Origin: Candidatus Daviesbacteria bacterium RIFCSPHIGHO2_12_FULL_37_16
GTDB lineage: Bacteria; Patescibacteriota; Microgenomatia; Daviesbacterales; UBA10151
Direction of reading: 5' to 3'
Assembly (NCBI GenBank): GCA_001776785.1
Contig: MFDF01000023.1
Span: 60,432 to 124,431, forward strand
DNA: 64,000 nucleotides
Of this stretch, positions 620-58,301 are shown in pieces. A program made the translations under genes and the position numbers. How positions within the stretch are numbered: position 1 is the stretch's first letter; the number at the start of each line of letters is the position of its first letter. The notes beneath the pieces are model-generated. The model saw only the letters and a program-made list of their open reading frames with translations. It was not told the DNA's origin and did no database searches.

Positions 620-2299
620 TTACTTAATTACACCTTCTTGTTTTAGGATCAAGACTAAGGCTGAGAAGTCTACAGCGTTTATTAATGAATCATCATTTAT
701 ATCAATCTCTGTTGGTAATCCAGTTGTCTTAGCCCAATTAGTCATCATTACAGACAGGTCAATCCTATCAACCCTTCCATCTTTATTACCATCACCTTTT
801 CTAAATTCCCCAACTCCTGGTTTAGTAACCTCTAGTTTTGGATCTGAAGAGTTAAGTGTTAGACCAGACCCTACTAAGGAAGCTATATAGTAGTACTCAG
901 GAGGGTTATTAATTCCGCCAACTCCGTCATCCTGGAACTCAGAAACCCAAGCAGAATTTGCAGTTGTTCCCACAAATGTGGCAGTTACAGGATTATTTAG
1001 TACACTATTAAATCCTAATATGCCATCATCCTCTCTTACCTCAAATGTCACTTGTCTTCCATTACATGCACTAGAACCTGTTACCCTAATAGTTACCAGT
1101 GAGCCCTGCATAACTGGATTTGAAGGTGTAATCCAGGCTGCATTAGTTAAGGTGCAAGTTGGTACAGGTGTTGGACTTGGAGTTGGAGATGGGGTTGGTG
1201 TTGGACCAGCTGAGCCAGTTGGTGTTGGGCTTGGAGATGGGGTTGGGGTTGCTCCAGATTGCAGAGTTAAAGCTAAATCAGTTGTTGAACCTAAAATATC
1301 CTGGTTATCTGAATTTCTTAAAATACCTGAAGTTGGTAAAATAGAAATAGTTGTGGGTCCAGCAGTCTTTGCCTTGAATGTAAATGCCATCATTTTAACC
1401 CCACTCCCACTTGTTTGGATACCAGGACTTGGTACTCCTCCTAAAAGTGAAACCTCACCAGTAGCATTATCATAAAACTGCTCAGCCCATTGGGTAATAA
1501 ATGAACCTGTGGGCTCAAGCCTGACAACTTCAAGTTTAGCTGCATCAAAACTCAATTTTGCATCAAATAAATTAGCAGCATCCTGATCACTTTGGGCTTG
1601 CAAAGTTACCAGAAACTCCTGCCCAACAGTTACAGGATTAGTATTACTAATTAAAGTGAAGCTTGCACTGCCTGTCTGTGAACCGATATTAATTGTCCCA
1701 TCACCTCTATTCTGCAAAATATTACTATTAGAATTGCTTGATATTGCCTGAGAAGCAGCACTAAAACTTATTGCTGCAACTCCAGATGCAATAATTGGTT
1801 TAAAAGTTAAAGTTGCAATTAACCCATCACCATTTACAGGTGCAACAGTTCCTCTAGATATGGTCACACTTCCAGGAGAGGTTGTGGTAGGTACTTCCAA
1901 TCCAAAACTACTACCAGTCCCATCTATGCTGACATATTCCAAAGAGGCGATTGGGTAATTAACTACTGCCTCAACAGCATTAATAGGTTCCCCATTAGTA
2001 TTTACCCTAACCTGAACCTGAAAATTCTGATTTTGTGTAGCTTGGGTAGTAACAGGAGATACATACACACAAGCAGTCCCAGTTGTTGTATTTTGACAAA
2101 CTGTTCCTGTTACATCAGCTTGTGAGGATGGTTTTTGGTATAAAAAACTAAATAAATTGTCCTTGAAAGGAGCACTTGAAGAGATAAAAAGATATGCTAC
2201 CAGCCCTAAGGCTGCGAGCAGTATTAAAGGGATTAAATGTACAATCCCATTTTGGAGTTTTAGTGTATTCTTTGCAGAATTAAAAAGCCTGGACAACAT
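620..2299 (-). CDS. Surface protein with two cohesin-like domains, a Pro/Thr linker and a C-terminal dockerin (two Ca-binding repeats)
   Basis: N-terminal TM anchor. PT linker TPTPSPSPTPTGSAGPTPTPSPTPSPTPVPT. C-terminus GDGNKDGRVDRIDLSVM...DINDDSLINAVDFSALVLIL is a classic type-I dockerin duplicated segment. Internal beta-sandwich segments resemble cohesin. Confidence 0.55.
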   Translation of the reverse strand: MLSRLFNSAKNTLKLQNGIVHLIPLILLAALGLVAYLFISSSAPFKDNLFSFLYQKPSSQADVTGTVCQNTTTGTACVYVSPVTTQATQNQNFQVQVRVNTNGEPINAVEAVVNYPIASLEYVSIDGTGSSFGLEVPTTTSPGSVTISRGTVAPVNGDGLIATLTFKPIIASGVAAISFSAASQAISSNSNSNILQNRGDGTINIGSQTGSASFTLISNTNPVTVGQEFLVTLQAQSDQDAANLFDAKLSFDAAKLEVVRLEPTGSFITQWAEQFYDNATGEVSLLGGVPSPGIQTSGSGVKMMAFTFKAKTAGPTTISILPTSGILRNSDNQDILGSTTDLALTLQSGATPTPSPSPTPTGSAGPTPTPSPTPSPTPVPTCTLTNAAWITPSNPVMQGSLVTIRVTGSSACNGRQVTFEVREDDGILGFNSVLNNPVTATFVGTTANSAWVSEFQDDGVGGINNPPEYYYIASLVGSGLTLNSSDPKLEVTKPGVGEFRKGDGNKDGRVDRIDLSVMMTNWAKTTGLPTEIDINDDSLINAVDFSALVLILKQEGVIK

Positions 2300-10964: not shown

Positions 10965-12494
10965 TTAAGCATCTGATTTAGCCCTATATTGGAGGGCTTC
11001 TGCAATGTGGTGCTGTTCAATATGTTCTGAATCTGCTAGATCTGCAATGGTTCTGGATAATTTTAATATCCTGTGATAACTTCTGGCTGATAAATTCATC
11101 TGGACTATAGCTAATTTTAATAAATCCAAAGCTTCTTTTTTAATTGTGCAAAACTGTTTAATTTGGGAATTATTCATCTCTGAATTGGTTAGAATTCCTG
11201 TTCCTGCAAACCTTTTTGACTGGATTTTTCTTGTTTTCTCAACCCTTTTTTTAATCTCTTTTGAGGTTTCAGATTTTAGGTCTCCTGTTAATTTTTCAAC
11301 ATCAACAGCTGGTACATCTAAATGAATATCTATCCTGTCTAAAAGGGGGCCTGATAATTTTTTCTGGTACCTTGAGACCTGGCCCGGCATGCAGATACAG
11401 CTTTTTTTAATGTCCCCCAAAAACCCGCAGGGGCAGGGATTTTGGGCAGCCAGCAAAATAAACTGGGCTGGGAAGGATAAAGACCCGGAAGCCCTGGAGA
11501 TAACAACATGCCTATCCTCTAAAGGTTGCCTTAGGGATTCTAAAACCTGTCTTGGAAATTCAGGCAGTTCATCTAAAAATAGGACACCTCTGTGAGAGAG
11601 AGAAACCTCACCAGGTTTAATATTATTTCCTCCACCTATAATCCCAACATAAGAAGCTGTATGGTGAGGGGCCCTAAAGGGCCTTGTTTTTATAATTGCC
11701 TCATCTTTAGAAAGGTTTCCTGAGACTGAATAGATCTGGGTGATTTCTAATGCTTCATCTAAAGATAAAGAAGGGAGAATAGAAGGGAAAGTCCTGGCAA
11801 GCATGGTTTTACCTGCACCTGGAGGGCCTTTTAATAAAACATTGTGGGCACCTGCAGCTGCAATTTCTAAAGCCCTTTTTGATTGTTCCTGGCCTTTAAT
11901 CTGGGAAAAATCATACTCATAAAGCCCTTCTTTTTCTAAATTGATTTTAGTTTTGGGCTGGGGAGTAAAGGAGACAGATTTATTCAAAAAACTTACAACA
12001 TCTTTTAAATTTTCAAAGCCATAGATTTTTACTCCATCTATAATTGCTGCTTCAACTGCATTATCTTTTGGAATAATAATTTTTTTTAGACCTAATTTTT
12101 TTGCAAGAATAGTTAAGGGTAAAACTCCATGGGTATATCTTAAAGACCCATCAAGGGAGAGCTCACCTACATATAATATATCCTCTTCTACCTTTTCTAA
12201 CTGGCCTGAGCCAATTAAAATCCCTACTGCAATTCCTAAATCATATAAAGGTCCTTCTTTGGGTAGATCTGCAGGAGCTAAATTAACAGTGATCCTTTTT
12301 GGGGGAAAGTCTGCGCCTGAATTTCTTAAAGCTGAGCGGACCCTTTCTTTGGATTCATCGATTGCTTTGTCTCCTAAACCAACAATGGAAAAAGAGGGGA
12401 GGCCTTGGGAGGCTATGTCTACTTCAATAGTGACAGGGGTTGAGTTGAGCCCTAAATTTGCACCGGATAAAACCTTGGCAAGCATTAAAAACAT
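10965..12494 (-). CDS. comM: YifB/ComM family Mg-chelatase-like AAA+ ATPase
   Basis: N-terminal Lon-like domain. Walker A GPPGAGKT. C-terminal Mg-chelatase ChlI-like region. Confidence 0.85.
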   Translation of the reverse strand: MFLMLAKVLSGANLGLNSTPVTIEVDIASQGLPSFSIVGLGDKAIDESKERVRSALRNSGADFPPKRITVNLAPADLPKEGPLYDLGIAVGILIGSGQLEKVEEDILYVGELSLDGSLRYTHGVLPLTILAKKLGLKKIIIPKDNAVEAAIIDGVKIYGFENLKDVVSFLNKSVSFTPQPKTKINLEKEGLYEYDFSQIKGQEQSKRALEIAAAGAHNVLLKGPPGAGKTMLARTFPSILPSLSLDEALEITQIYSVSGNLSKDEAIIKTRPFRAPHHTASYVGIIGGGNNIKPGEVSLSHRGVLFLDELPEFPRQVLESLRQPLEDRHVVISRASGSLSFPAQFILLAAQNPCPCGFLGDIKKSCICMPGQVSRYQKKLSGPLLDRIDIHLDVPAVDVEKLTGDLKSETSKEIKKRVEKTRKIQSKRFAGTGILTNSEMNNSQIKQFCTIKKEALDLLKLAIVQMNLSARSYHRILKLSRTIADLADSEHIEQHHIAEALQYRAKSDA

Positions 12495-14723: not shown

Positions 14724-15638
14724 TTACTTAAGAGTGCAGAAGAGTTGGGGGAAGGAAATCCTGAAGAATCCAAAGTTTAGGGTCCTAACCCTAATCTGAC
14801 AGGATATATTTAGTCCAAAGAAGGGATTAGGGGCTGAACTAGGTGTTGCAGATGGTGAAGAGGTTGGTGTAGCTGATGGAATTGAGGTAGGTGTGGCAGA
14901 AGGGGTAGCTGTAGGTGTAGGCTGCGCAGTTGGTGAAGCTGAAGGAGTAGCAGTGGGGGTTGCACTTGGAGTTGCTGTTGGAGAGGGAGTGGCCTCTGGT
15001 TCAATGTCAGACTGGGAGTTTTGGGGCTGGGGTACATCTCTTACTACAAAATCATCTCCATTGTTATTTGTATCTTCTGCATTGCCCATGTTTATATCAA
15101 CTCCTGAGGACATACTCTGCGGGGTTGAAGAAGAGTTTGCTTTTCTTTCCAGACTCTGGCCTGATGAAGGAGTGGCAGCTGCAGTTGTTTCTGTATCTAA
15201 AGCTGTTCCAAAGCCTACTTTATCAACTAGAGTTGTGCCTGAGTCAGAAAATAAAGAGAGAGTATTATCATCTGCAATTACTCCTGATGAGTAAACTAAG
15301 TCAGCAGAAGGAGAAGCAAATGATTCATCATGGGTTATTAAGAAAAATCCATTTGAAGGGATAGTCCCTGACAAAGATGCTACCAGGCTTGTTTCAGGAG
15401 ATCCATCCTGAGGTTTTTTTGTTAATCTCCAACCTGCAAGATCTACTGGAGAGGAGGTTGGGTTATAAAGCTCAATAAATTCATCATTTGCACTACTGCC
15501 TCTGACCATAATTTCTGAAATGACTATGTTTGTGGCTGCAGCAGATTTAACTGATGTTACCTGGTGTAAGTAGATTAGGGAGAGTGTTGTTAGGGCTGTA
15601 AGAGATAAAAAGATGGGAAGGGCAGTTTTTCTCATCAA
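14724..15638 (-). CDS. Secreted lamin-tail-domain (LTD) protein with a long Ala/Thr/Pro/Ser low-complexity tail
   Basis: Signal peptide. IVISEIMVRGSSANDEFIELYNPTSSPVDLAGWRL is the LTD signature. C-terminal (ATPS)n repeats generate the spurious ORFs on the opposite strand. Confidence 0.7.
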   Translation of the reverse strand: MMRKTALPIFLSLTALTTLSLIYLHQVTSVKSAAATNIVISEIMVRGSSANDEFIELYNPTSSPVDLAGWRLTKKPQDGSPETSLVASLSGTIPSNGFFLITHDESFASPSADLVYSSGVIADDNTLSLFSDSGTTLVDKVGFGTALDTETTAAATPSSGQSLERKANSSSTPQSMSSGVDINMGNAEDTNNNGDDFVVRDVPQPQNSQSDIEPEATPSPTATPSATPTATPSASPTAQPTPTATPSATPTSIPSATPTSSPSATPSSAPNPFFGLNISCQIRVRTLNFGFFRISFPQLFCTLK

Positions 15639-34190: not shown

Positions 34191-35868
34191 GTTTAGGGGT
34201 TGCAGCATAATCTTCAACTTCTTTTAGTTTTACTCCATGGTCTAAGTGGTCCATTGAATATTTTATAGTTGCATCTGTTTTTTTGTGAGGGTTAAAGATT
34301 TTTTTTGGATCAAAAATCTCTTTTACTTCTTTAAATAACTGGTACATCTGCTCTCCATACATTTTGGGTAAATAGGGCCCTCTGACTAGTCCATCATTGT
34401 GCTCTGCAGCCATGGAACCTTTAAATTCAAAAACTAAATTAAAAACTTTTTCTGAAATTTCAGGAATTAAGCTTCTTATATTTTCATCTGAAAAGTTCAT
34501 AAGTGGGATAATATGAAAGTTTCCATTACCAATGTGTCCTGCAATTGTATATATAATTTTCCCTTCATACTGTTTTAGAAGCTCCTGGAGCCTGGGTAAA
34601 AATTGAGGAAGGTCTTTTGGAGAGATAATTATGTCATCTATAAATGGGGCAGTCCTCATATTTTCCCCTGAATGATGCCTTAGGATATTAAAACTATCCC
34701 TTCTTATAATCCAGTATTTTTCCTCATCATTTGAGTGGATCACCCTTAAATGAATATTAAACTTTGTTAGAGCTTCTTTTGCTTTTTGTGCTAGGTCAAT
34801 CTCTTCACCTTCATTTTCTCCAGTGAACTCAGCTATCAATATAAGTTTAGGGAGTTGTCCAGCCAGAGACATTAAATACTCAGGTAAAATTTTTAAATAA
34901 ACTTCAAAGCCATGGGTTTTTTTAAAGTCTTTAGCTATTTCTCCAATATATTTAGTGGCTGCTTTTAGGGTAGCATCATCAAAACACTCAAAACTTTCAG
35001 GTTTAAATTCTAAAACAGTATTTACAATTTGATCTAATTTTTCCAAGTTTTGAAGTTCTATCTCAAGCATGGCTGTTTGAGGCTTTGGTTTAATAAGCTG
35101 AAACTCTATCTCTGTAACTATTCCCAAAGTTCCCTGTGACCCAACTATTAGTTTAGTTAAGTCAAATGTTTGCTCATCAGAAACTTTCCAAAGATAGTAG
35201 CCTGTGGAATTTTTAGAAGTATGGGGCTGCGAAGATTTTATTAACTCTAAATTTTCATTTATTAGTTCACTTATCTTTTTATAAATTTCTCCCTCTAAAT
35301 TATTTTGAGAAACTTTATTACTCAATACATTTTTATCAATTGGATATATTTCATACTCATTTCCATCTGAGAGAATAACTTTTAATTTCCTAACCCATTT
35401 TTCAGTTTGGCCAAAACTTAAGGATTTTTCCCCCGCAGCATTATTTCCTACCATTCCTCCGACAGTGCAGATCTCTCTTGAGGAGGTGTAACAGGGTAAG
35501 ATTAAACCTTTTTCTAAAGTTTTTTTCTCAAAATCTCTGTAAAAAACTCCAGGTTGGGTCCTGGCAAAATTATCCCCTACCTCTAAAACAGAATTAAAAT
35601 ATTTGGTCATATCTAAAATTATTGAGTCATTTAAAGGACCTCCTGACATGCAGGTGGCAGCTGCCCTGGGGGTTAGAGAGAGGTTTTGTTCTGGGTTTTC
35701 ATTTATATATTTAACTAAAGCTTTTATGTCTTCTGAATCTTTAGGGAAAACTACTAATTGGGGTTTAATGATAAAGATTGATGCATCTTTTGAATAGGTA
35801 TTTAGGGTTTGTTGATCATCCAATACTTCTCCTTTAATAATAGATTGAATTTGATCTTTTAGAGCCAT
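34183..35868 (-). CDS. FAD-linked oxidase (GlcD / D-lactate dehydrogenase family)
   Basis: PCMH-type FAD-binding motif (CTVGGMVGNNAAGEKSLSFG). C-terminal FAD-oxidase_C. Confidence 0.75.
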   Translation of the reverse strand: MALKDQIQSIIKGEVLDDQQTLNTYSKDASIFIIKPQLVVFPKDSEDIKALVKYINENPEQNLSLTPRAAATCMSGGPLNDSIILDMTKYFNSVLEVGDNFARTQPGVFYRDFEKKTLEKGLILPCYTSSREICTVGGMVGNNAAGEKSLSFGQTEKWVRKLKVILSDGNEYEIYPIDKNVLSNKVSQNNLEGEIYKKISELINENLELIKSSQPHTSKNSTGYYLWKVSDEQTFDLTKLIVGSQGTLGIVTEIEFQLIKPKPQTAMLEIELQNLEKLDQIVNTVLEFKPESFECFDDATLKAATKYIGEIAKDFKKTHGFEVYLKILPEYLMSLAGQLPKLILIAEFTGENEGEEIDLAQKAKEALTKFNIHLRVIHSNDEEKYWIIRRDSFNILRHHSGENMRTAPFIDDIIISPKDLPQFLPRLQELLKQYEGKIIYTIAGHIGNGNFHIIPLMNFSDENIRSLIPEISEKVFNLVFEFKGSMAAEHNDGLVRGPYLPKMYGEQMYQLFKEVKEIFDPKKIFNPHKKTDATIKYSMDHLDHGVKLKEVEDYAATPKPT

Positions 35869-35880
35869 ATTTTATAGTTT

Positions 35881-35918
35881 TCTCTGGGTTCTGCCAGCTC
35901 GCTGTCACCCCTCGAAAA
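35881..35918 (+). repeat. Family-2 GC-rich intergenic repeat, short form (CTGCCAGCTCGC|TGTCACCCCTCGAAAA)
   Basis: Matches the two ends of the 105-nt copies at 37279 and 40441 with the internal ~70 nt missing. Confidence 0.5.
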
Positions 35919-35937
35919 CTCTTTACTAATCGTAACA

Positions 35938-37266
35938 GTGTCCTTCTGGCTTGTCCAGAATCTTAAGCTATTGTATGTTAAATACATGGATGAAAATCTG
36001 CCCAAGAGTCTTAATGCAATCTCAACCCCAATACCTTCTGAGAATGCAGGTAAAAAAATTATTGTTTTTGGGACTCCTACCTGTCCTGATTGCGGGAGGG
36101 TTAAAAAATTCTTAACTGAAAATGCCATTGAGTATGAATTTCATGATGTATCTTCTGAAAAAGAGGCAAATAATTGGCTTACAAGTTTTGTAACTTTTGT
36201 TCCAGTTTTAGTAATGCCTGATAAAACTCTTTTATATTCCCCTTCAAACCAGGAACTTTTGGAAAAAATTAATGGGGGAAGTGTGAATGAAGCTGTAAAG
36301 ATGGTTGAACCTGAAGTTTTTGACACAATAATTATTGGGGCAGGTCCTGCAGGATTATCTGCTGCAATTTATGCAGTCAGGAAATCTTTAAAGGTTTTAA
36401 TTATTACAAAAGATATTGGAGGGCAGGCAGCACTTTCAGGGGATATTGAAAATTATTTAGGGTTTACTATGATTGCGGGGGCAGATTTGGTAGCTAAGTT
36501 TAAAGAGAGTGTAGAACAATTTAAAGGGGATGGTATTTGGATTAAGGATGGGGTGGAGGTTACTGATTTAGTAAGTGAAAATGGGCAGTTTGTTGTAAAA
36601 ACTTTAAGTGGGGAATACAAAAGTAAAAGTGTAATTGTTGCATCAGGAAGAATTCCAAGGCATTTAAATATACCTGGAGAGAAGGAGTTTATAGGGAAGG
36701 GTGTGGCAACCTGTGCCACTTGTGATGCACCTTTATTTAAGGGTAAAGATGTGGCAGTTGTTGGGGGTGGAAATTCTGCTTTGGATGCTGCATTTTCTTT
36801 AATGAAGCTTGCAAAAAGTGTAACTATTATTAATTTAACTGAACAAATTAGCGGGGATAGTATTTTGGTGGAGAATGTAACCCATGCTAACAATGTAAAG
36901 ATTTTAAATAACACAGAGAGTTTAGAGATAATAGGTAAACAGTTTGTGGAGGCAGTGAAGGTGAAAGAAAAGATAACAGGAAAGGAGGAAGCAATACCTG
37001 TTGCAGGTGTGTTTGTAGAGATTGGGTATACTCCATCAACTGGTTTTGATAAGTTAACTGATAAAGATGAGCAGGGCTGCATTATTGTTGATGAGATGGG
37101 GCATTCATCTGTAGATGGGATTTGGGCTGCAGGGGATGTTAATAATTTATGGGGTGAACAGATTGTTATAGCTGCTGGAGAGGGAGCAAAAGTTGCTTTA
37201 TCTGTGGCAGAGCATATCTCTAAACAGCCTCACCAGGCTACTTCAAATCCGCATGAACAGGTTTAA
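35938..37266 (+). CDS. Glutaredoxin-like domain (CPDC) fused to a thioredoxin-reductase-like FAD/NAD(P) oxidoreductase (CATC)
   Basis: TPTCPDCGRVKKF. GAGPAGLSAAIYA. CATCDAPLF. GDV...AAGEG. The start is possibly the Met 15 codons downstream of the first ATG. Confidence 0.7.
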   Translation: MSFWLVQNLKLLYVKYMDENLPKSLNAISTPIPSENAGKKIIVFGTPTCPDCGRVKKFLTENAIEYEFHDVSSEKEANNWLTSFVTFVPVLVMPDKTLLYSPSNQELLEKINGGSVNEAVKMVEPEVFDTIIIGAGPAGLSAAIYAVRKSLKVLIITKDIGGQAALSGDIENYLGFTMIAGADLVAKFKESVEQFKGDGIWIKDGVEVTDLVSENGQFVVKTLSGEYKSKSVIVASGRIPRHLNIPGEKEFIGKGVATCATCDAPLFKGKDVAVVGGGNSALDAAFSLMKLAKSVTIINLTEQISGDSILVENVTHANNVKILNNTESLEIIGKQFVEAVKVKEKITGKEEAIPVAGVFVEIGYTPSTGFDKLTDKDEQGCIIVDEMGHSSVDGIWAAGDVNNLWGEQIVIAAGEGAKVALSVAEHISKQPHQATSNPHEQV

Positions 37267-37278
37267 GATAATGTATTT

Positions 37279-37383
37279 GCTCGGGGTCCTGCCAGCTCGC
37301 AGCCCCAGTTAGAAAAAATTTAAGGGACGGGGTCTATTAAATTTTTTCATTGGGGCGCCCCGCTCGCTGTCACCCCTCGCAAT
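37279..37383 (+). repeat. Family-2 GC-rich intergenic repeat, long form
   Basis: Aligns over ~105 nt with 40441-40543: GGGTCCTGCCAG...AGCCCCA...GAAAAA...TTT..GGGGCGCCCCGC...CTGTCACCC.TCG.AA. Confidence 0.6.
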
Positions 37384-37389
37384 TTTTCA

Positions 37390-38094
37390 TTAATGCACAT
37401 AGACTCTGGTGCCTGGGTTGTCGGCAGAAGCACGCAGGGCATTAGTTTTCTCTGGTAAAACAGGGCCTGCCCATTCAAATAACTGGGCAACCTGGGCTAG
37501 TGGGGCATTGACACATCCATGTGACATGGGTTGGCCAAAGTTGTTGTGCCAGTAAGCGCCATGGACTGCATATCCTTTATAGAAAAACATATTGTTGGGG
37601 ACATTGGGTAAATTGTAGTAAGTACCTAACTCTTTTGAACCTCCAATCATGGATTGGTTTCTGGTCTTATACCAGATAGAAAAATCCCCTTTTGGTGTAG
37701 GTGCCCATTTACCAGAGGAGATAGGAAATTCCATTACTACCCTGTTTCCCTCCATAGCCCTTAATTTTTGCTCATCTAAGGAAATATCAATCCATTTTTC
37801 CTCTCCTGCTGCATTTGTTGTACCCAAGACATCTTTTAAAGCGTTAGCTGATGCTAACCTAACTGTTGAGGCAAGAGAAGTTTTTGGGTAATCAATTACT
37901 TCATTATTAAAAATTGCTACTGATGATGTTTCATCAAATTCTCCATTTTGAGATAATTTATTTTCATCACAGCAGGATAATGTTGTATCTCCTGAAATAC
38001 CTAACCTGTAAGCAAGTTCTCTTTTTAAAGGAAGATAGTTTAATATAGTTGCCAGCAGGGCGAGTATGACTATAACGGGCAGAAGTTTACTCAT
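37390..38094 (-). CDS. L,D-transpeptidase (YkuD) domain protein, membrane-anchored
   Basis: Catalytic H...SHGCV(N) motif near the C-terminus. Confidence 0.7.
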   Translation of the reverse strand: MSKLLPVIVILALLATILNYLPLKRELAYRLGISGDTTLSCCDENKLSQNGEFDETSSVAIFNNEVIDYPKTSLASTVRLASANALKDVLGTTNAAGEEKWIDISLDEQKLRAMEGNRVVMEFPISSGKWAPTPKGDFSIWYKTRNQSMIGGSKELGTYYNLPNVPNNMFFYKGYAVHGAYWHNNFGQPMSHGCVNAPLAQVAQLFEWAGPVLPEKTNALRASADNPGTRVYVH

Positions 38095-38161
38095 AATCTT
38101 ATTTTTGCATCCTAAAAATTTTTAATCAAGAATCAGATTTTAATATGTTAGAATTTTTGTC

Positions 38162-39115
38162 ATGAGAAAAGCTTTTTTATTATACTTTCTGGTAATTTTA
38201 CTTTCAGTAGTTTCCCTTACTTTTTACTTTATTACTGCCAGTAAGAAAGCATTAATTTCTCCTGTACTTGGAATTTCAAAGCAAAGACTAGCTGAAAATG
38301 TCTGGTTTCCTAAAGAAGCTGGGAAAAGTTCTGCGGAGGATACAAAAGTTTCAGAACAGATTACAGCAAATGCTGCATTTTTTGTAGAGACTCAAAGCGG
38401 ACAGGTTTTATTTTCAAAAAACCAATATGAAAAATATTCTGTAGCATCTCTTATAAAAATTATGACTGTGATTGTTGCTTTAGAGCATAAATCGGTGGAG
38501 GATATTTATAGTGTCAGCCAAAAAGCTGCAGATATGGAACCAGACAAAATGCTTTTGATTGCAGGAGAGAGGTTAAGTTTAAAAAAATTACTTGAGGGAA
38601 TATTTTTAGTTTCTGCAAATGACGCTGCAGAAGTTTTGGCTGAGGGAACAACAGGAAGAAGAGAGGAATTCATAAATTTAATGAATTCAAAAGCACTGCA
38701 ACTGGGGATGAATAATACATATTTTGTAAATCCCACAGGCCTTGAGGAAGATCCCTGGACTTGTTTTAATAAAAGCCCCTGTCAGTATTCCAGTGCTTTT
38801 GATGTTTTGTTAATGTCTCATTATGCTATAAAAAAGTGGCCTGAGATTATATCCATAACATCAGAGTCCCATATATTTATAGAAGCTACTTCTGACCACC
38901 AGGATTATGATTTATATTCAGGGATTAACCTTTTAACTACATATCCTGGAGTCATAGGGTTTAAGACAGGATTTACTCCTGAGGCAGGGTTAACATTAGT
39001 TACACTGGCAAGAAGGGGTGATAAAGAAGTTATGGGAGTACTTTTGGGAGCAACTGACAGAAGGGATGATGCTAAGCTGCTTTTGGACTATTCATTTAAA
39101 AAGTTAGGAGTTTAA
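38162..39115 (+). CDS. dacA: D-alanyl-D-alanine carboxypeptidase (peptidase S11, PBP5-like)
   Basis: SxxK (SVASLIK), SxN (SAND), KTG (KTGFT). Confidence 0.75.
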   Translation: MRKAFLLYFLVILLSVVSLTFYFITASKKALISPVLGISKQRLAENVWFPKEAGKSSAEDTKVSEQITANAAFFVETQSGQVLFSKNQYEKYSVASLIKIMTVIVALEHKSVEDIYSVSQKAADMEPDKMLLIAGERLSLKKLLEGIFLVSANDAAEVLAEGTTGRREEFINLMNSKALQLGMNNTYFVNPTGLEEDPWTCFNKSPCQYSSAFDVLLMSHYAIKKWPEIISITSESHIFIEATSDHQDYDLYSGINLLTTYPGVIGFKTGFTPEAGLTLVTLARRGDKEVMGVLLGATDRRDDAKLLLDYSFKKLGV

Positions 39116-39657
39116 TGGTTTTATTGGGCTATATTATTGCAGCAGTTCTACTAATTTTTGCAATTTTGATAATAATTTATTTGTTTTTGGACTTTATTGC
39201 CCATTTTTTGGGGGCACCTTTTGTACCAACTTCTCAAAAAGATATTGATGAAATTTTAAAGGAGGCAAAATTAAAAAAGGGTCAGGTGTTTATTGAACCA
39301 GGCAGTGGTGATGGCAGAGTTGTAATAAGTGCAGTTAAAAATTATGGGGTTTTTGGAGTGGGAATTGAAGTCCACCCCTTTTTACTGCTTTATTCAAAGC
39401 TTTCAGCCAGGTTTAAGAAAGTTAGTGTGCAGCTTAAAGCTGAGAATTTTTTTCAGACAAATTACAAAAAAGCTGATGTGATTTTTCTATTTTTGTTTCC
39501 AAGAACTTTAAAAAAATTAAAAGAAAAATTTTTAAAAGAATGCAAAAAAAATACTTTAATAATTTCCCATGGGTTTAGGATAGAAGGAATGGAGAAATAT
39601 TTAATAAAAACATTAGAAAGAAAAGTTTATAATACTTACTTTTATAAAATAAGGTAA
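39115..39657 (+). CDS. Class I SAM-dependent methyltransferase with an N-terminal TM
   Basis: Motif I VFIEPGSGDGRVV. Start overlaps the dacA stop (TAATG). Confidence 0.6.
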   Translation: MVLLGYIIAAVLLIFAILIIIYLFLDFIAHFLGAPFVPTSQKDIDEILKEAKLKKGQVFIEPGSGDGRVVISAVKNYGVFGVGIEVHPFLLLYSKLSARFKKVSVQLKAENFFQTNYKKADVIFLFLFPRTLKKLKEKFLKECKKNTLIISHGFRIEGMEKYLIKTLERKVYNTYFYKIR

Positions 39658-39722
39658 CTTCTCCACTCACTACGTTCGGTCGAAGAGTAAATTTTTTGTT
39701 CGAGCGTAGTCGAGAACATACA
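39658..39722 (+). repeat. Family-3 GC-rich 3'-flanking repeat/hairpin
   Basis: Homologous to 55619-55684 (TTCTCCAC...TCGAA...AATTTTT...TTCGAGCG...AGTCGAGAA.ATAC). Forms a ~10-bp stem ACTACGTTCG/CGAGCGTAGT. Confidence 0.5.
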
Positions 39723-39776
39723 CACAGTTAATAGCTTGATTAATTGTACACGGGGTGGTAAAAGTGAGAATTAGAA

Positions 39777-40436
39777 ATGAGTGAAAGGGTTTTTGTAGTT
39801 ATATTTTTAGTAGTAGTTGCGCTGGTTTCTGTTGGGCTTTTGGTCTCCAGGTCTATGCAGAATAACCAGGTTAACCAATCTGCCCAGAGTGCAAATACTA
39901 TTTCTCCTCCACCAAGTGCTGCGGGACAAGTAAGCCAGACACCAGTCCCAACTCCACTAAGGAAAACCTATACTGCTTACACTGGAGATGTTACTTTAAA
40001 GGAAAGACAAAATAAAAAAGCTGTAATTCAGACAAAAAAAGGGACAATTGAGTTTGAGATTTATCCAGAGGCTACTAAAGCTGCATCTAATTTTATTAAA
40101 TTAACTAATGATGGGTTTTATGATGGGATTACATTCCACAGGGTAGAGCCAGGTTTTGTAATTCAGGGAGGGGATCCTGAAGGGACTGGTAGAGGTGGAC
40201 CAGGATACAAGTTTGAGGATGAACCAGTGACTAAAAAGTATATTAAAGGGATTGTTGCAATGGCTAATGCAGGTCCAGATACCAATGGATCACAGTTTTT
40301 TATCATGCTTGAGGATAAACTGGATTTACCTCCAAAATATACAATTTTTGGGAAGGTTATAAAGGGACAAGAGGTTGTATCTGCAATTAGGGTTGGGGAT
40401 GTAATGGAAAAAGTGACGATAGAAAATTTAAGGTAG
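39777..40436 (+). CDS. ppiB: Cyclophilin-type peptidyl-prolyl cis-trans isomerase, membrane-anchored
   Basis: FHRVEPGFVIQGGDP, GIVAMANAGPDTNGSQFFI. Confidence 0.85.
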   Translation: MSERVFVVIFLVVVALVSVGLLVSRSMQNNQVNQSAQSANTISPPPSAAGQVSQTPVPTPLRKTYTAYTGDVTLKERQNKKAVIQTKKGTIEFEIYPEATKAASNFIKLTNDGFYDGITFHRVEPGFVIQGGDPEGTGRGGPGYKFEDEPVTKKYIKGIVAMANAGPDTNGSQFFIMLEDKLDLPPKYTIFGKVIKGQEVVSAIRVGDVMEKVTIENLR

Positions 40437-40440
40437 TTTT

Positions 40441-40543
40441 CTCCGGGTCCTGCCAGAGGACAGCCCCAAATGGAAAAATTTGTGGAACAGGTTCTAACAA
40501 ATTTTTCTCTCGGGGCGCCCCGCCCTCTGTCACCCGTCGAAAA
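40441..40543 (+). repeat. Family-2 GC-rich intergenic repeat, long form (second copy)
   Basis: See 37279-37383. Confidence 0.6.
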
Positions 40544-40601
40544 CAAATTTCACACTTCACTCCCTTTTAGCAAAAACTTCTCTTTAAAAATCTATGATTT
40601 G

Positions 40602-40646
40602 CACAATATATTGTATGTTGACAGGGATTACTTGTAGTGTGATAAG
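40602..40646 (+). promoter_or_regulatory. Putative nrdR promoter with an NrdR-box-like palindrome (CACAATATATTGTATG) overlapping a TTGACA -35
   Basis: 12-bp perfect palindrome ACAATATATTGT resembling the NrdR box consensus. TTGACA at 40618 with TGTGATAAG ~17 nt downstream. Confidence 0.4.
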
Positions 40647-40701
40647 TTAGTAGATGTTGGGTATGTTGAGTGTAGGTTAGGGTGAGTATACAAGATGTTG
40701 T

Positions 40702-54972: not shown

Positions 54973-55611
54973 ATGAATAGAGAACAGGCGTACAACTTAA
55001 TGACTGAGATGATAAAGAATCCTAATTTGAGGAAACATGGAGTAGCTGTGGAGGCTATTATGAGGGCTTTGTGCAAATATTTAAAAGAGCGGGTCCGTGT
55101 CCACCCCGGGGGTGGAAGCAAGGTTACTGCTGGCCCGCACCCCCGGGGTGATGCCAAAGTGGATGAATTTGATGAAGAGGAATGGGCAATAGTTGGGCTT
55201 TTACATGATGCAGATTATGAGTTGATAGAAAAAGACCCAACCAGACATACTTTGGTGACTGAGGAAAAGTTAAGAGAAAAAGGGGTTAACAATGAGAGGA
55301 TGATTTCTGCAATAAAAGCTCACCACGATGGAATAAAAGAGGGAAGGGATAATTTGCTTGAGAGTTCAGTTTATGCAGCTGATGAGCTGTCAGGGTTAAT
55401 TACAGCTTGTGCTTTGGTACAGCCAGATAAAAAACTTGCACCTGTTAGTGTGGAGTCTGTAATGAAGAAATTTAAACAAGCTAATTTTGCAGCAGGTGCA
55501 AGAAGAGACCAAATTTTGGCTTGTGAGAAAGAATTAGAGATTCCTTTAAGAGAATTTGTTAAGATAGCTTTAGATGCAATGAAAGGAATTTCATCTGAGC
55601 TGGGTTTGTAA
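54973..55611 (+). CDS. HD-domain phosphohydrolase carrying an in-frame GC-rich insert
   Basis: H...LLHDADYE HD motif. Residues VHPGGGSKVTAGPHPRGD are encoded by a 50-nt palindromic GC-rich segment (55101-55150). Confidence 0.6.
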   Translation: MNREQAYNLMTEMIKNPNLRKHGVAVEAIMRALCKYLKERVRVHPGGGSKVTAGPHPRGDAKVDEFDEEEWAIVGLLHDADYELIEKDPTRHTLVTEEKLREKGVNNERMISAIKAHHDGIKEGRDNLLESSVYAADELSGLITACALVQPDKKLAPVSVESVMKKFKQANFAAGARRDQILACEKELEIPLREFVKIALDAMKGISSELGL

Positions 55612-58058: not shown

Positions 58059-58184
58059 GGGCAGTTCCTTAGCCTTTAGTGTAGCTAATTTGTATGTCTG
58101 TTATCAAGAGTTAAATTACGTAGTCTGTTGTGAAGGTCGCTCGTCAGATCATAAAGTACCGTTCGGGCCGGATCCCTCACTGTT

Positions 58185-58223
58185 GGTGAGCAAGTCACCG
58201 AACTACTGCATGACTTGCTCACC
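58185..58223 (+). promoter_or_regulatory. Perfect 13-bp stem-loop (GGTGAGCAAGTCA-N13-TGACTTGCTCACC) in the secA leader / divergent intergenic region
   Basis: Seen directly. No upstream gene ends here, so it is not a simple terminator. Confidence 0.4.
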
Positions 58224-58301
58224 GACTACTTTATTGATTCTGACTTCGCTACCTTATGCCAGCTCTGTGAAATTGATGGATTTTTAGGTATAATTGCATC
58301 C

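What the first reader, a model, noticed from the sequence alone, without database searches (positions are those of the whole stretch)
35881..40543. Family-2 ~105-nt GC-rich intergenic element (two long copies, one short) with partly compensatory changes
37279-37383 and 40441-40543 align end to end (GGGTCCTGCCAG...AGCCCCA...GAAAAA...GGGGCGCCCCGC...CTGTCACCC.TCG). The copy at 35881-35918 joins the two ends without the middle. The outer pairing shows partial covariation, which suggests a conserved long-range helix. The copies sit in a convergent terminator region, a 3' UTR upstream of nrdR, and a divergent promoter region, so they are not only terminators.
Basis: seen in the sequence. Interest (0 to 1): 0.6.

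Follow-up and report, generated by a model that had tools for sequence, protein, structure and literature searches.

The report
Palindromic mobile repeat in CPR bacteria
The three GC-rich sequences are copies of a small hairpin-forming repeat from uncultured Candidate Phyla Radiation (CPR) bacteria; related copies in other genomes sit in frame inside essential genes and are read as protein, as the palindromic elements of Rickettsia are.

Summary
Window 35878-35919, 37276-37383 and 40437-40544 are three same-strand copies of one imperfect palindrome. The short copy is the outer hairpin alone. The window comes from a Candidatus Daviesbacteria genome (CPR). No Rfam family and no terminator pattern fits. 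Public scans and a peptide search raised the count to 15 distinct copies. All share GGGTCCTG-Y-CAN / NTG-Y-CACCC, a 3-nt bulge, an always-unpaired pyrimidine-pyrimidine position and a hypervariable but complementary 4-5 bp segment. In the outer helix 87.5% of cells are paired against 68.9% in shuffles, and the covariation score is 0.42 against 0.12. The elements are absent from the same sites in relatives. A 92.5%-identical copy lies at a different locus in another genome; the few similar genes in the two stretches are 30-55% identical in protein. A sister core type is inserted in frame in RadA, LeuRS (three sites), ArgRS, NifU, an ABC ATPase, Fpg and a membrane protein, always in one reading frame. 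Best reading: a new family of non-autonomous palindromic elements that behaves like Rickettsia palindromic elements. The transposition enzyme is unknown. Compensatory change inside old radA copies leaves a host function possible.

The parts
35878..35919 (+). Short copy. It is the outer hairpin only: TTTTCTCT-GGGTTCTGCCAG-CTCG(loop)-CTGTCACCC-CTCGAAAAC. It lies between the divergent starts of the FAD-oxidase gene (- strand, ATG at 35868) and the glutaredoxin-thioredoxin-reductase fusion gene (+ strand, start 35986).
37276..37383 (+). Long copy A: the outer hairpin plus the type I core. It fills almost all of the 123-nt gap between the convergent stop codons of the thioredoxin-reductase fusion gene (stop ends at 37266) and the YkuD L,D-transpeptidase gene (- strand, stop at 37390-37392).
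40437..40544 (+). Long copy B: the outer hairpin plus the type I core. It starts directly after the TAG stop codon of the cyclophilin (PPIase) gene (40434-40436) and lies 157 nt upstream of nrdR (start 40702).
37284..37295 (+). Conserved 5' arm GGGTCCTGCCAG (P1, TCC bulge, P2). The same motif is at 35886-35897 (one mismatch) and 40445-40456.
37367..37375 (+). Conserved 3' arm CTGTCACCC (P2', P1'). The same motif is at 35902-35910 and 40527-40535. The C of the 5' arm and the T of the 3' arm form a mismatch that is pyrimidine-pyrimidine in all 15 copies.
37300..37362 (+). Type I core of copy A: CAGCCCC ... GGGGCGCCCCG, with an asymmetric GCCCCG bulge. It encloses an AT-rich inner hairpin (37312-37323 pairs with 37337-37348).
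40461..40522 (+). Type I core of copy B. Its inner hairpin (40472-40483 pairs with 40497-40508) carries compensatory changes relative to copy A.

Best explanation
The three sequences are copies of a small non-autonomous palindromic repeat that is, or recently was, mobile in CPR/Patescibacteria genomes (the window is from Candidatus Daviesbacteria). Each copy is one long imperfect hairpin. From the base upwards it has: an A/T-rich foot (GTTTTS/SAAAAC); a conserved tandem TC/TC mismatch; a GGG(G)/(C)CCC stem; a 3-nt TCC bulge; a 6-bp stem TGYCAG/CTGYCA with an obligatory pyrimidine-pyrimidine mismatch; a hypervariable but complementary 4-5 bp segment; and then either a 4-nt loop (minimal form of about 41 nt) or an exchangeable core. 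The core is type I, about 62 nt, in the window; type II has 95 nt between the conserved arms. The invariant subterminal stem with its bulge and mismatch is most likely the part recognised by an enzyme supplied in trans. That enzyme would act on a hairpin or cruciform or on single-stranded DNA, as in REP/RAYT or IS200/IS605-like systems. This step is inferred, because no enzyme was identified. Copies land in short AT-rich intergenic spacers. Type II copies also land in frame in loops of housekeeping proteins, where they are read as an extra segment of about 45 residues (GPVSRFLPASARS...ELRAVGNPSTTATP). In the window the copies are intergenic passengers. Any effect on neighbouring genes, such as protecting the 3' ends of the PPIase, thioredoxin-reductase and YkuD mRNAs or altering the 5' UTR of the FAD-oxidase gene, is possible but untested. 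Shown here: the repeat family, hairpin covariation, presence/absence at the same sites in related genomes, a near-identical copy at a different locus in another genome, and in-frame copies in at least 7 protein families. Inferred: the mode of mobility and the trans-acting enzyme.
For: (1) The family is real and specific. The window holds 3 copies. Further distinct copies were found in a Curtissbacteria and a Patescibacteria genome (L011, L012) and in metagenome contigs (L151, L174/L166). The two-part motif is specific: among 203 hits to the 5' motif in 3 Mb, only 2 had a 3' motif nearby by chance. (2) Hairpin covariation over 15 copies: 87.5% of cells are paired against 68.9% in shuffles, 13 of 19 pairs have double changes, and the covariation score is 0.423 against 0.124 (0 of 500 shuffles reach it). 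Slid controls score at most 0.163. Helix 2 is 94.8% paired and 6 of its 8 pairs have double changes. The cores covary as well: 10 of 40 pairs in type I and 11 of 35 in type II. (3) Presence/absence. Thioredoxin-reductase loci from relatives at 77%, 72% and 67% protein identity lack the elements. In L017 the two stop codons are 4 nt apart where the window has copy A, and the divergent starts are 22 nt apart where the window has the short copy. (4) Copy D (L174) is 92.5% identical to B over 120 nt, lies between different genes (a TP_methylase gene and a DedA-like gene), and the few genes similar in the two stretches, which are not shown to be orthologues, are only 30-55% identical at the protein level. 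(5) In-frame copies. In radA of L011 the ORF stays open through the element. In an alignment of 18 Curtissbacteria RadA sequences, 8 carry the insert at the same position and 10 lack it. A phmmer search with the insert peptide against 1.84 billion proteins found it inside ArgRS, LeuRS (three sites in one gene), NifU, an ABC ATPase, Fpg and a membrane protein. DNA fetched for NifU, the ABC ATPase and LeuRS shows the same conserved arms and complementary variable segments. (6) No Rfam family matches and there is no terminator pattern at the elements. (7) In an AlphaFold model of L011 RadA the insert is low-confidence coil between a helix and a strand. This is weak evidence because the overall pLDDT is only 60.7.
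Against: No transposase or recombinase partner was identified. No target-site duplication could be defined, because the flanks of filled and empty sites are too diverged. Copy number is low: 3 in 64 kb, all within 4.7 kb, and exact-end scans of 185,579 species genomes and of the JGI metagenomes returned only a handful of true hits. Type I cores, the kind in the window, were never found inside proteins, and copy A has a stop codon in the frame that type II copies use. So the in-frame behaviour is shown only for the sister core type. The radA inserts have diverged about as much as the flanking gene (insert 70-80% and flanks 63-71% nucleotide identity), yet they keep the hairpin through compensatory changes. 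A dead selfish insertion would not be expected to do that, which points to selection on the structure where it sits.
Confidence: 0.7

Rival explanations
1. The hairpin is a host-selected nucleic-acid signal, not merely selfish DNA. It could be a structured RNA in UTRs and mRNAs, for example an RNase III or other processing site, a block to 3' exonucleases, a translation-pausing structure, or the binding site of a CPR-specific protein. It could equally be a DNA cruciform bound by a protein. Its spread would then be secondary.
For: Covariation is strong in every helix. Non-paired features are invariant in all 15 copies: the TCC bulge and a pyrimidine-pyrimidine mismatch that changes from C.T to T.C but is never repaired. 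The radA copies appear to be old and vertically inherited, because they diverge like the flanking gene, yet their arms are more conserved than the gene (73-88% against 63-71%) and the pairing is kept by double changes that alter the encoded amino acids. Two of the three window copies lie at the 3' ends of genes.
Against: Contexts are heterogeneous: a divergent promoter region, convergent 3' ends, operon spacers, and in-frame positions in at least 7 unrelated protein families. Both orientations relative to genes occur. The elements are absent from the same sites in close relatives. The cores are exchangeable. No Rfam family matches. Both strands fold about equally well, and G.U pairs are as frequent on one strand as on the other (26 against 28), so nothing marks a transcribed functional strand.
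Confidence: 0.2
2. The elements are recombination sites of an integron-like or other site-specific system (attC-like). This would explain three same-orientation hairpins bracketing genes within 4.7 kb.
For: The hairpins are imperfect, with conserved bulges and a variable terminal structure, which is the general architecture of attC sites. All three window copies have the same orientation and lie close together.
Against: The ends carry no RYYYAAC/GTTRRRY boxes. The genes between and next to the copies are housekeeping genes, none matches an integrase family, and their order is kept in relatives that lack the elements (L017 and L019). Copies inside coding sequences do not fit a model of gene cassettes.
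Confidence: 0.03
3. The elements are Rho-independent transcription terminators, or bidirectional terminators, that happen to be similar.
For: They are GC-rich hairpins in an AT-rich genome. Copy A lies between convergent genes and copy B lies after the PPIase gene.
Against: The T-run precedes the stem and an A-run follows it on both strands. The terminator scan finds 5 sites in the region and none at the elements. The short copy lies between divergent gene starts. Sister copies lie inside ORFs that are read through.
Confidence: 0.03
4. The similarity is due to chance, or the copies are decaying remnants of a single duplication.
For: The window holds only three copies and they are clustered.
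Against: Motif counts exceed all shuffles. The same ends occur in several other, separately assembled genomes and contigs at unrelated loci. Pairing is kept by compensatory changes.
Confidence: 0.01

Closest known systems
Rickettsia palindromic elements (RPEs; Ogata et al. 2000, as summarised in PMC10969869)
   Same: Both are dispersed palindromic repeats of about 100-150 bp in a small, AT-rich genome. Copies occur in intergenic regions and in frame within unrelated housekeeping genes. One reading frame is used, which gives a conserved inserted peptide. The hairpin is kept by compensatory changes. No transposase is known.
   Different: The host is a different phylum (CPR, not Alphaproteobacteria), and sequence similarity to RPEs was not tested. 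This family is modular: an invariant subterminal stem with a bulge and a mismatch, a minimal form of about 41 nt, and exchangeable cores. The core type in the window (type I) was found only between genes, and copy A has a stop codon in the frame used by in-frame copies.
REP/BIME elements mobilised by RAYT (TnpA-REP, HUH Y1) transposases
   Same: Both are short GC-rich imperfect palindromes between genes with conserved mismatches or bulges. The most conserved part is the hairpin itself rather than the outermost ends. Four type I copies are preceded by (G/A)TAG, which resembles the REP GTAG tetranucleotide.
   Different: Copy number is very low compared with the hundreds of REP copies per genome. 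No RAYT gene was seen, although only 64 kb was available. The long forms and the in-frame coding copies are not features of REPs. The G of the TAG can also be explained as part of the basal stem GTTTTC/GAAAAC.
Bacterial MITEs (Correia, ERIC, RUP, Nezha and others)
   Same: Both are small, non-coding and non-autonomous, have inverted-repeat ends, fold as RNA hairpins, show insertion polymorphism between relatives, and occasionally form in-frame fusions.
   Different: No target-site duplication and no parent IS with matching ends could be identified. The outermost ends vary, whereas the subterminal stem is invariant.
Integron attC sites
   Same: Both are imperfect hairpins with conserved extrahelical bases and a variable terminal structure, and their function is defined by structure.
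   Different: There are no R-box consensus sequences, no integrase and no cassette organisation, and some copies lie inside genes.
GC clusters and translational-bypass elements (byps) of yeast mitochondrial genomes (from my own knowledge, not checked here)
   Same: Both are GC-rich palindromic mobile clusters in an AT-rich genome that also land in coding regions.
   Different: Those are organellar and eukaryotic. Here the inserts keep an open frame and a conserved peptide, so they appear to be translated rather than bypassed.

Membership tests
Rickettsia palindromic elements (RPE) | Palindromic repeat of about 100-150 bp that is dispersed in the genome | tested here: met
   The long copies are 108-140 nt and fold as a single hairpin. 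They occur at unrelated loci.
Rickettsia palindromic elements (RPE) | In-frame insertion in unrelated protein-coding genes, giving a conserved peptide | tested here: met
   Met for the type II core: RadA, ArgRS, LeuRS (three sites), NifU, an ABC ATPase, Fpg and a membrane protein. Not met for the type I core found in the window.
Rickettsia palindromic elements (RPE) | Sequence homology to RPE-1 to RPE-10 of Rickettsia | not tested
   No RPE sequences were available in the tools. The host is a different phylum, so this is an analogy and not family membership.
MITE | Small non-autonomous element with terminal inverted repeats | tested here: met
   The copies are 41-140 nt and encode no gene of their own. 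The ends GTTTTS...SAAAAC and GGGTCCTGYCAG...CTGYCACCC are inverted repeats.
MITE | Target-site duplication flanking each copy | tested here: inconclusive
   No consistent direct repeat flanks the copies. Empty sites in L017 are too diverged to fix the boundaries. The GCTCG...GCTCG repeat inside copies A and F can also be read as a recurring C:G/T.C/C.T/G:C motif.
MITE | A parent insertion sequence with the same ends that encodes a transposase | not testable with these tools
Nothing transposase-like lies next to any copy that was examined.
REP / RAYT | Imperfect palindrome of 20-40 nt preceded by a conserved GTAG | tested here: inconclusive
   The short copy is a 41-nt hairpin. GTAG or ATAG precedes 4 of the 7 intergenic copies (short, B, C, D) but not A or F, nor the radA copy E.
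REP / RAYT | High copy number and a RAYT gene in the same genome | tested here: not met
   There are 3 copies in 64 kb and very few hits in large collections. The presence of a RAYT gene could not be assessed genome-wide.
Integron attC | R''/R' boxes (RYYYAAC ... GTTRRRY) and an adjacent integrase with a cassette array | tested here: not met
   The ends read (G)TTTTSTC and TCGSAAAA(C). The genes next to and between the copies are housekeeping genes and none matches an integrase family.
Intrinsic terminator | GC-rich stem followed by a T-run | tested here: not met
   An A-run follows the stem on both strands. The scan finds no site at the elements.
Any Rfam family | Covariance-model score at or above the gathering threshold | tested here: not met
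   The window gives only two tRNAs. In the E-value mode over 35800-40700, the best hit that overlaps an element scores 23.2 bits against a threshold of 90.

The most novel reading that the evidence does not exclude
The invariant stem with its bulge and mismatch is a nucleic-acid signal under selection where it sits. It would be recognised by a dedicated CPR factor, as RNA or as DNA. It is kept for long periods inside the mRNAs of essential genes (RadA, aminoacyl-tRNA synthetases, Fe-S assembly proteins) as well as between genes. The family would then be a domesticated structural module that links these genes, and its translated form would be a recurrent route by which CPR bacteria add loops to core proteins.
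Probability: 0.18. Interest if true: 0.8.

Novelty: new member of a known kind. Interest (0 to 1): 0.55.

Why it matters
CPR/Patescibacteria have tiny genomes, and I know of no small mobile repeats described for them (own knowledge). The searchable literature held no description of palindromic or MITE-like elements in them. This family would be a second, independent case of the Rickettsia palindromic element phenomenon: a hairpin-forming repeat that colonises intergenic spacers and also the loops of essential proteins, where it is read as protein. That bears on how reduced genomes tolerate selfish DNA and how they gain new protein segments. It also has practical consequences. One assembly breaks inside such a repeat: contig L016 starts inside copy A. 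The repeats create odd insert peptides in annotated CPR proteins, and they could serve as strain markers. The strictly conserved bulge and mismatch give a concrete handle for finding the enzyme or factor that recognises the hairpin.

Tried and rejected
1. Rfam at gathering thresholds on the whole window, and in E-value mode on 35800-40700, gave only chance-level hits.
2. The promoter/terminator scan found nothing at the elements.
All of them looked like chance hits and none had the 3' motif.
5. The strand test was abandoned. The reverse-complement strand folds better as RNA in 9 of 10 copies, by up to 11 kcal/mol, which I first read as strand-specific selection. However, G.U pairs are equally frequent on both strands (26 against 28). 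The difference therefore comes from purine mismatches and loops, and I dropped the argument.
6. I considered the GCTCG...GCTCG direct repeat around the cores of A and F, which is single in the short copy, as a target-site duplication. I rejected that because B, C, D and all type II copies have inverted complementary segments at that position.
7. A k-turn reading of the bulge plus tandem G.A on the reverse strand fails, because the bulge and the G.A pairs are separated by 4 Watson-Crick pairs.
8. A protein-database search with six-frame translations of copies D and F found nothing at E <= 10.
9. A look-up of a 90%-identical ribonucleotide reductase (P0003) found no record.
10. L001-L003 and L016 are the same strain as the window and added no variation.
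11. The AlphaFold model of RadA has low overall confidence, so it is used only as weak support.


Full report
**1. Observation**

The three sequences exist as described. The repeat finder groups them into one family (D2 and D3). The 5' motif GGGTCCTGCCAG, the 3' motif CTGTCACCCCTCG and the internal GGGGCGCCCCGC each occur more often than in any of 100 dinucleotide-preserving shuffles. The few other weak hits lie in coding sequence and are unrelated.

They run from TTTKCTCN-GGGT to ACCC-NTCGMAAA(C), which gives 35878-35919, 37276-37383 and 40437-40544. All three are on the + strand. The short copy is GGGTTCTGCCAG-CTCG-CTGTCACCC, that is, the two ends closed by a tetraloop.

The long copies fold into one long hairpin. 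Their energies are -45.6 and -38.4 kcal/mol, with z-scores of -4.2 and -3.6 against shuffles, and the reverse strand folds at least as well.

**2. Setting**

The window has about 37% G+C. Its ribonucleotide reductase and NrdR proteins are the ones recorded as Candidatus Daviesbacteria (Daviesiibacteriota) and ACD_30. The host is therefore an uncultured CPR bacterium of the Microgenomates group.

- The short copy lies between the divergent starts of an FAD-oxidase gene and a glutaredoxin-thioredoxin-reductase fusion gene.
- Copy A fills the gap between the convergent stop codons of that fusion gene and a YkuD transpeptidase gene.
- Copy B begins right after the TAG stop codon of a cyclophilin (PPIase) gene and lies 157 nt upstream of nrdR.

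Rfam finds only two tRNAs in the window. In its permissive mode it finds nothing meaningful over the elements. A T-run precedes the stem and an A-run follows it on both strands, and the terminator scan finds no site at the elements.

**3. More copies**

- An exact-pattern scan of one genome per species returned 12 stretches, of which two also carry the 3' motif and are treated as true copies: L011 (Candidatus Curtissbacteria) and L012 (a Patescibacteria-group bacterium). Both have the same ends and a different middle.
- The metagenome scan added copy C (L151) and copy D (L174, identical to L166), and found L012 again as L175.
- The viral scan gave only stretches that look like chance matches.
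- The two-part motif is specific. Among 203 hits to the 5' motif in 3 Mb of fetched DNA, only two had a 3' motif nearby by chance.

**4. Absence in relatives and spread between genomes**

Thioredoxin-reductase loci from relatives at 77%, 72% and 67% protein identity lack the elements. In L017 the two convergent stop codons are 4 nt apart where the window has copy A. The divergent starts are 22 nt apart where the window has the short copy.

Copy D is 92.5% identical to B over 120 nt. It lies between a TP_methylase gene and a DedA-like gene. The few genes that are similar in the two stretches, which are not shown to be orthologues, are only 30-55% identical at the protein level. The element is thus far more conserved than those genes, and it sits at unrelated loci.

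**5. In-frame copies**

In L011 the element lies inside radA, and the ORF stays open through it. I aligned 18 Curtissbacteria RadA sequences. Eight carry an insert at the same position, between the Walker A helix and the VLYVTGEES strand, with a conserved peptide (RGPVSRFLPASARS...ELRAVG.PS..ATPR). Ten lack it, including one that is 86% identical to the L011 protein.

DNA of three further radA inserts shows the same arms, with exactly 95 nt between them in all four radA copies.

A phmmer search with the 46-residue insert peptide against 1.84 billion representative proteins gave 14 hits. The same segment lies inside:

- arginyl-tRNA synthetase (annotated as Candidatus Curtissbacteria);
- leucyl-tRNA synthetase (three sites in one protein, plus two fragments);
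- NifU/IscU, where it splits the domain;
- an ABC ATPase;
- Fpg;
- a 560-residue membrane protein;
- two small ORFs.

Three of the 14 hits are long proteins without a single clear matching stretch (0 or 7 stretches, 33% identity where given); I did not examine them further and do not use them.

DNA fetched for the NifU, ABC ATPase and LeuRS genes confirms the conserved arms GGGTCCTGTCAN and NTGCCACCC, with perfectly complementary variable segments. The intergenic copy F (L012) aligns with this type II core.

An AlphaFold model of the L011 RadA places the insert in low-confidence coil between a helix and a strand. The model has low overall confidence (pLDDT 60.7), so this is only weak support.

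Searching with translations of copies D (type I core) and F (a shorter relative of type II) found no proteins. Copy A has a stop codon in the frame used by type II copies. The window contains no type II peptide.

**6. Structure and covariation**

I aligned the outer arms of all 15 distinct copies. The results were:

- 87.5% of cells form standard pairs, against 68.9% in shuffles.
- 13 of 19 pairs show changes on both sides.
- The covariation score is 0.423, against 0.124 in shuffles (0 of 500 reach it) and at most 0.163 when the partners are slid.
- The upper helix is 94.8% paired.

The 4-nt segment next to CAG/CTG reads AGGA/TCCT, CAGA/TCTC, TCGT/ACGA, CGAT/ATCG, GAGT/ACTC, TGGT/ACCA, CAGT/ACTG, TTCT/AGAA, AAGT/ACTT and CGCT/AGCG in different copies. 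Copies A and F depart from this: both read CTCG/CTCG there, with only 2 of 4 positions paired. The cores covary as well, in 10 of 40 pairs (type I) and 11 of 35 pairs (type II).

Some features never become paired. These are the TCC bulge; a pyrimidine-pyrimidine mismatch inside TGYCAG/CTGYCA that is C.T in some copies and T.C in others; and, in most copies, a tandem TC/TC mismatch below the GGG stem.

The reverse strand folds better as RNA in 9 of 10 copies. However, G.U pairs are equally common on both strands (26 against 28). This asymmetry therefore reflects purine mismatches and does not identify a functional strand.

**7. Interpretation**

Five lines of evidence point to a non-autonomous mobile palindrome:

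- a dispersed, modular family;
- absence from the same sites in relatives;
- a near-identical copy at an unrelated locus in another genome, where the few similar genes are far more diverged;
- both orientations relative to genes;
- translated copies in one reading frame in many unrelated proteins.

The closest known behaviour is that of Rickettsia palindromic elements, as summarised in PMC10969869. REP/RAYT elements and MITEs are more distant analogues.

The outermost ends vary, and the most conserved part is a subterminal stem with a bulge and a mismatch. This suggests recognition of a folded single strand or cruciform by an enzyme supplied in trans. That step is inference. No partner gene, target-site duplication or parent IS was found.

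One result does not fit a purely selfish picture. The radA inserts have diverged about as much as the gene around them (insert 70-80%, flanks 63-71% nucleotide identity). Yet their arms are more conserved (73-88%), and the pairing is kept by double changes that alter the encoded residues. Selection on the hairpin where it sits, as RNA or as DNA, therefore remains a live alternative. I give it about 0.2.

The attC-like, terminator and chance explanations fail on tested features.

**8. Novelty**

Searches of the held literature found no description of palindromic or MITE-like elements in CPR, Patescibacteria or Microgenomates. I classify this as a new member of a known kind, namely palindromic non-autonomous repeats with RPE-like in-frame insertion. 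The window's own three copies are ordinary intergenic members. The interest comes from the wider family they reveal.

Noticed in passing
window 55083-55163: A different GC-rich palindrome (GAGCGGGTCCGTGTCCACCCCGGGGGTGG...CCCGCACCCCCGGGGTGATGCC; RNA MFE -39.7 kcal/mol) lies in frame inside an HD-domain gene (ORF 54973-55611). It encodes KERVRVHPGGGSKVTAGPHPRGDAKV between the H and HD motifs. It may be a second family of in-frame palindromic insertions in this same genome.
   Followed up: partly
window 58128-58255 (and L166:778-904): A strongly structured intergenic stretch of 128 nt upstream of secA (MFE -54 to -59 kcal/mol, z about -5.3) is 87.5% identical to a stretch in the L166 genome. There it lies next to a different ORF whose first residues look like the start of UvrB (my reading of the sequence; no domain search was run). 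Rfam gives no hit at E <= 1. It is either an undescribed small RNA gene or another shared mobile hairpin.
   Followed up: partly
L018:30-110 and L151:340-450: Other GC-rich palindromes of the TGTCATCCCGCA...TGCGGGAT / GGATCCCTGC...GCAGGAATGACA and GTCATTGCGAGG types lie next to the thioredoxin-reductase gene of a relative and next to copy C. These CPR genomes therefore carry several families of small GC-rich hairpin repeats.
   Followed up: no
window 40434-40436: The TAG stop codon of the cyclophilin gene is the (G)TAG that precedes the element in copies B, C and D (ATAG in the short copy). The insertion may therefore have supplied or replaced the end of that gene.
   Followed up: no
L016:1-70 and L016:2966-2978: In another sample of the same strain, the contig begins inside copy A, so the assembly breaks at the repeat. 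The cyclophilin gene there carries a TGG-to-TGA change that shortens the product from 219 to 170 residues.
   Followed up: no
window 1-64000: GC skew is persistently positive over most of the window (cumulative skew rises from 0 to about 4.9), and most genes and all three elements lie on the + strand. A paper on a Microgenomates genome reports an unusual difference in nucleotide composition between the two DNA strands (PMC7143001; I saw only its title and abstract).
   Followed up: no
window 1158-1257 and 14833-14998: There are runs of 12-nt periodic GTTGGWGTTGGA-like repeats (family D1 of the repeat finder). They are probably coding repeats rich in Gly and Val.
   Followed up: no
window 11424-11454: A short GC-rich hairpin-like island (CCCGCAGGGGCAGGGATTTTGGGCAGCC) is unrelated to the family studied here.
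   Followed up: no
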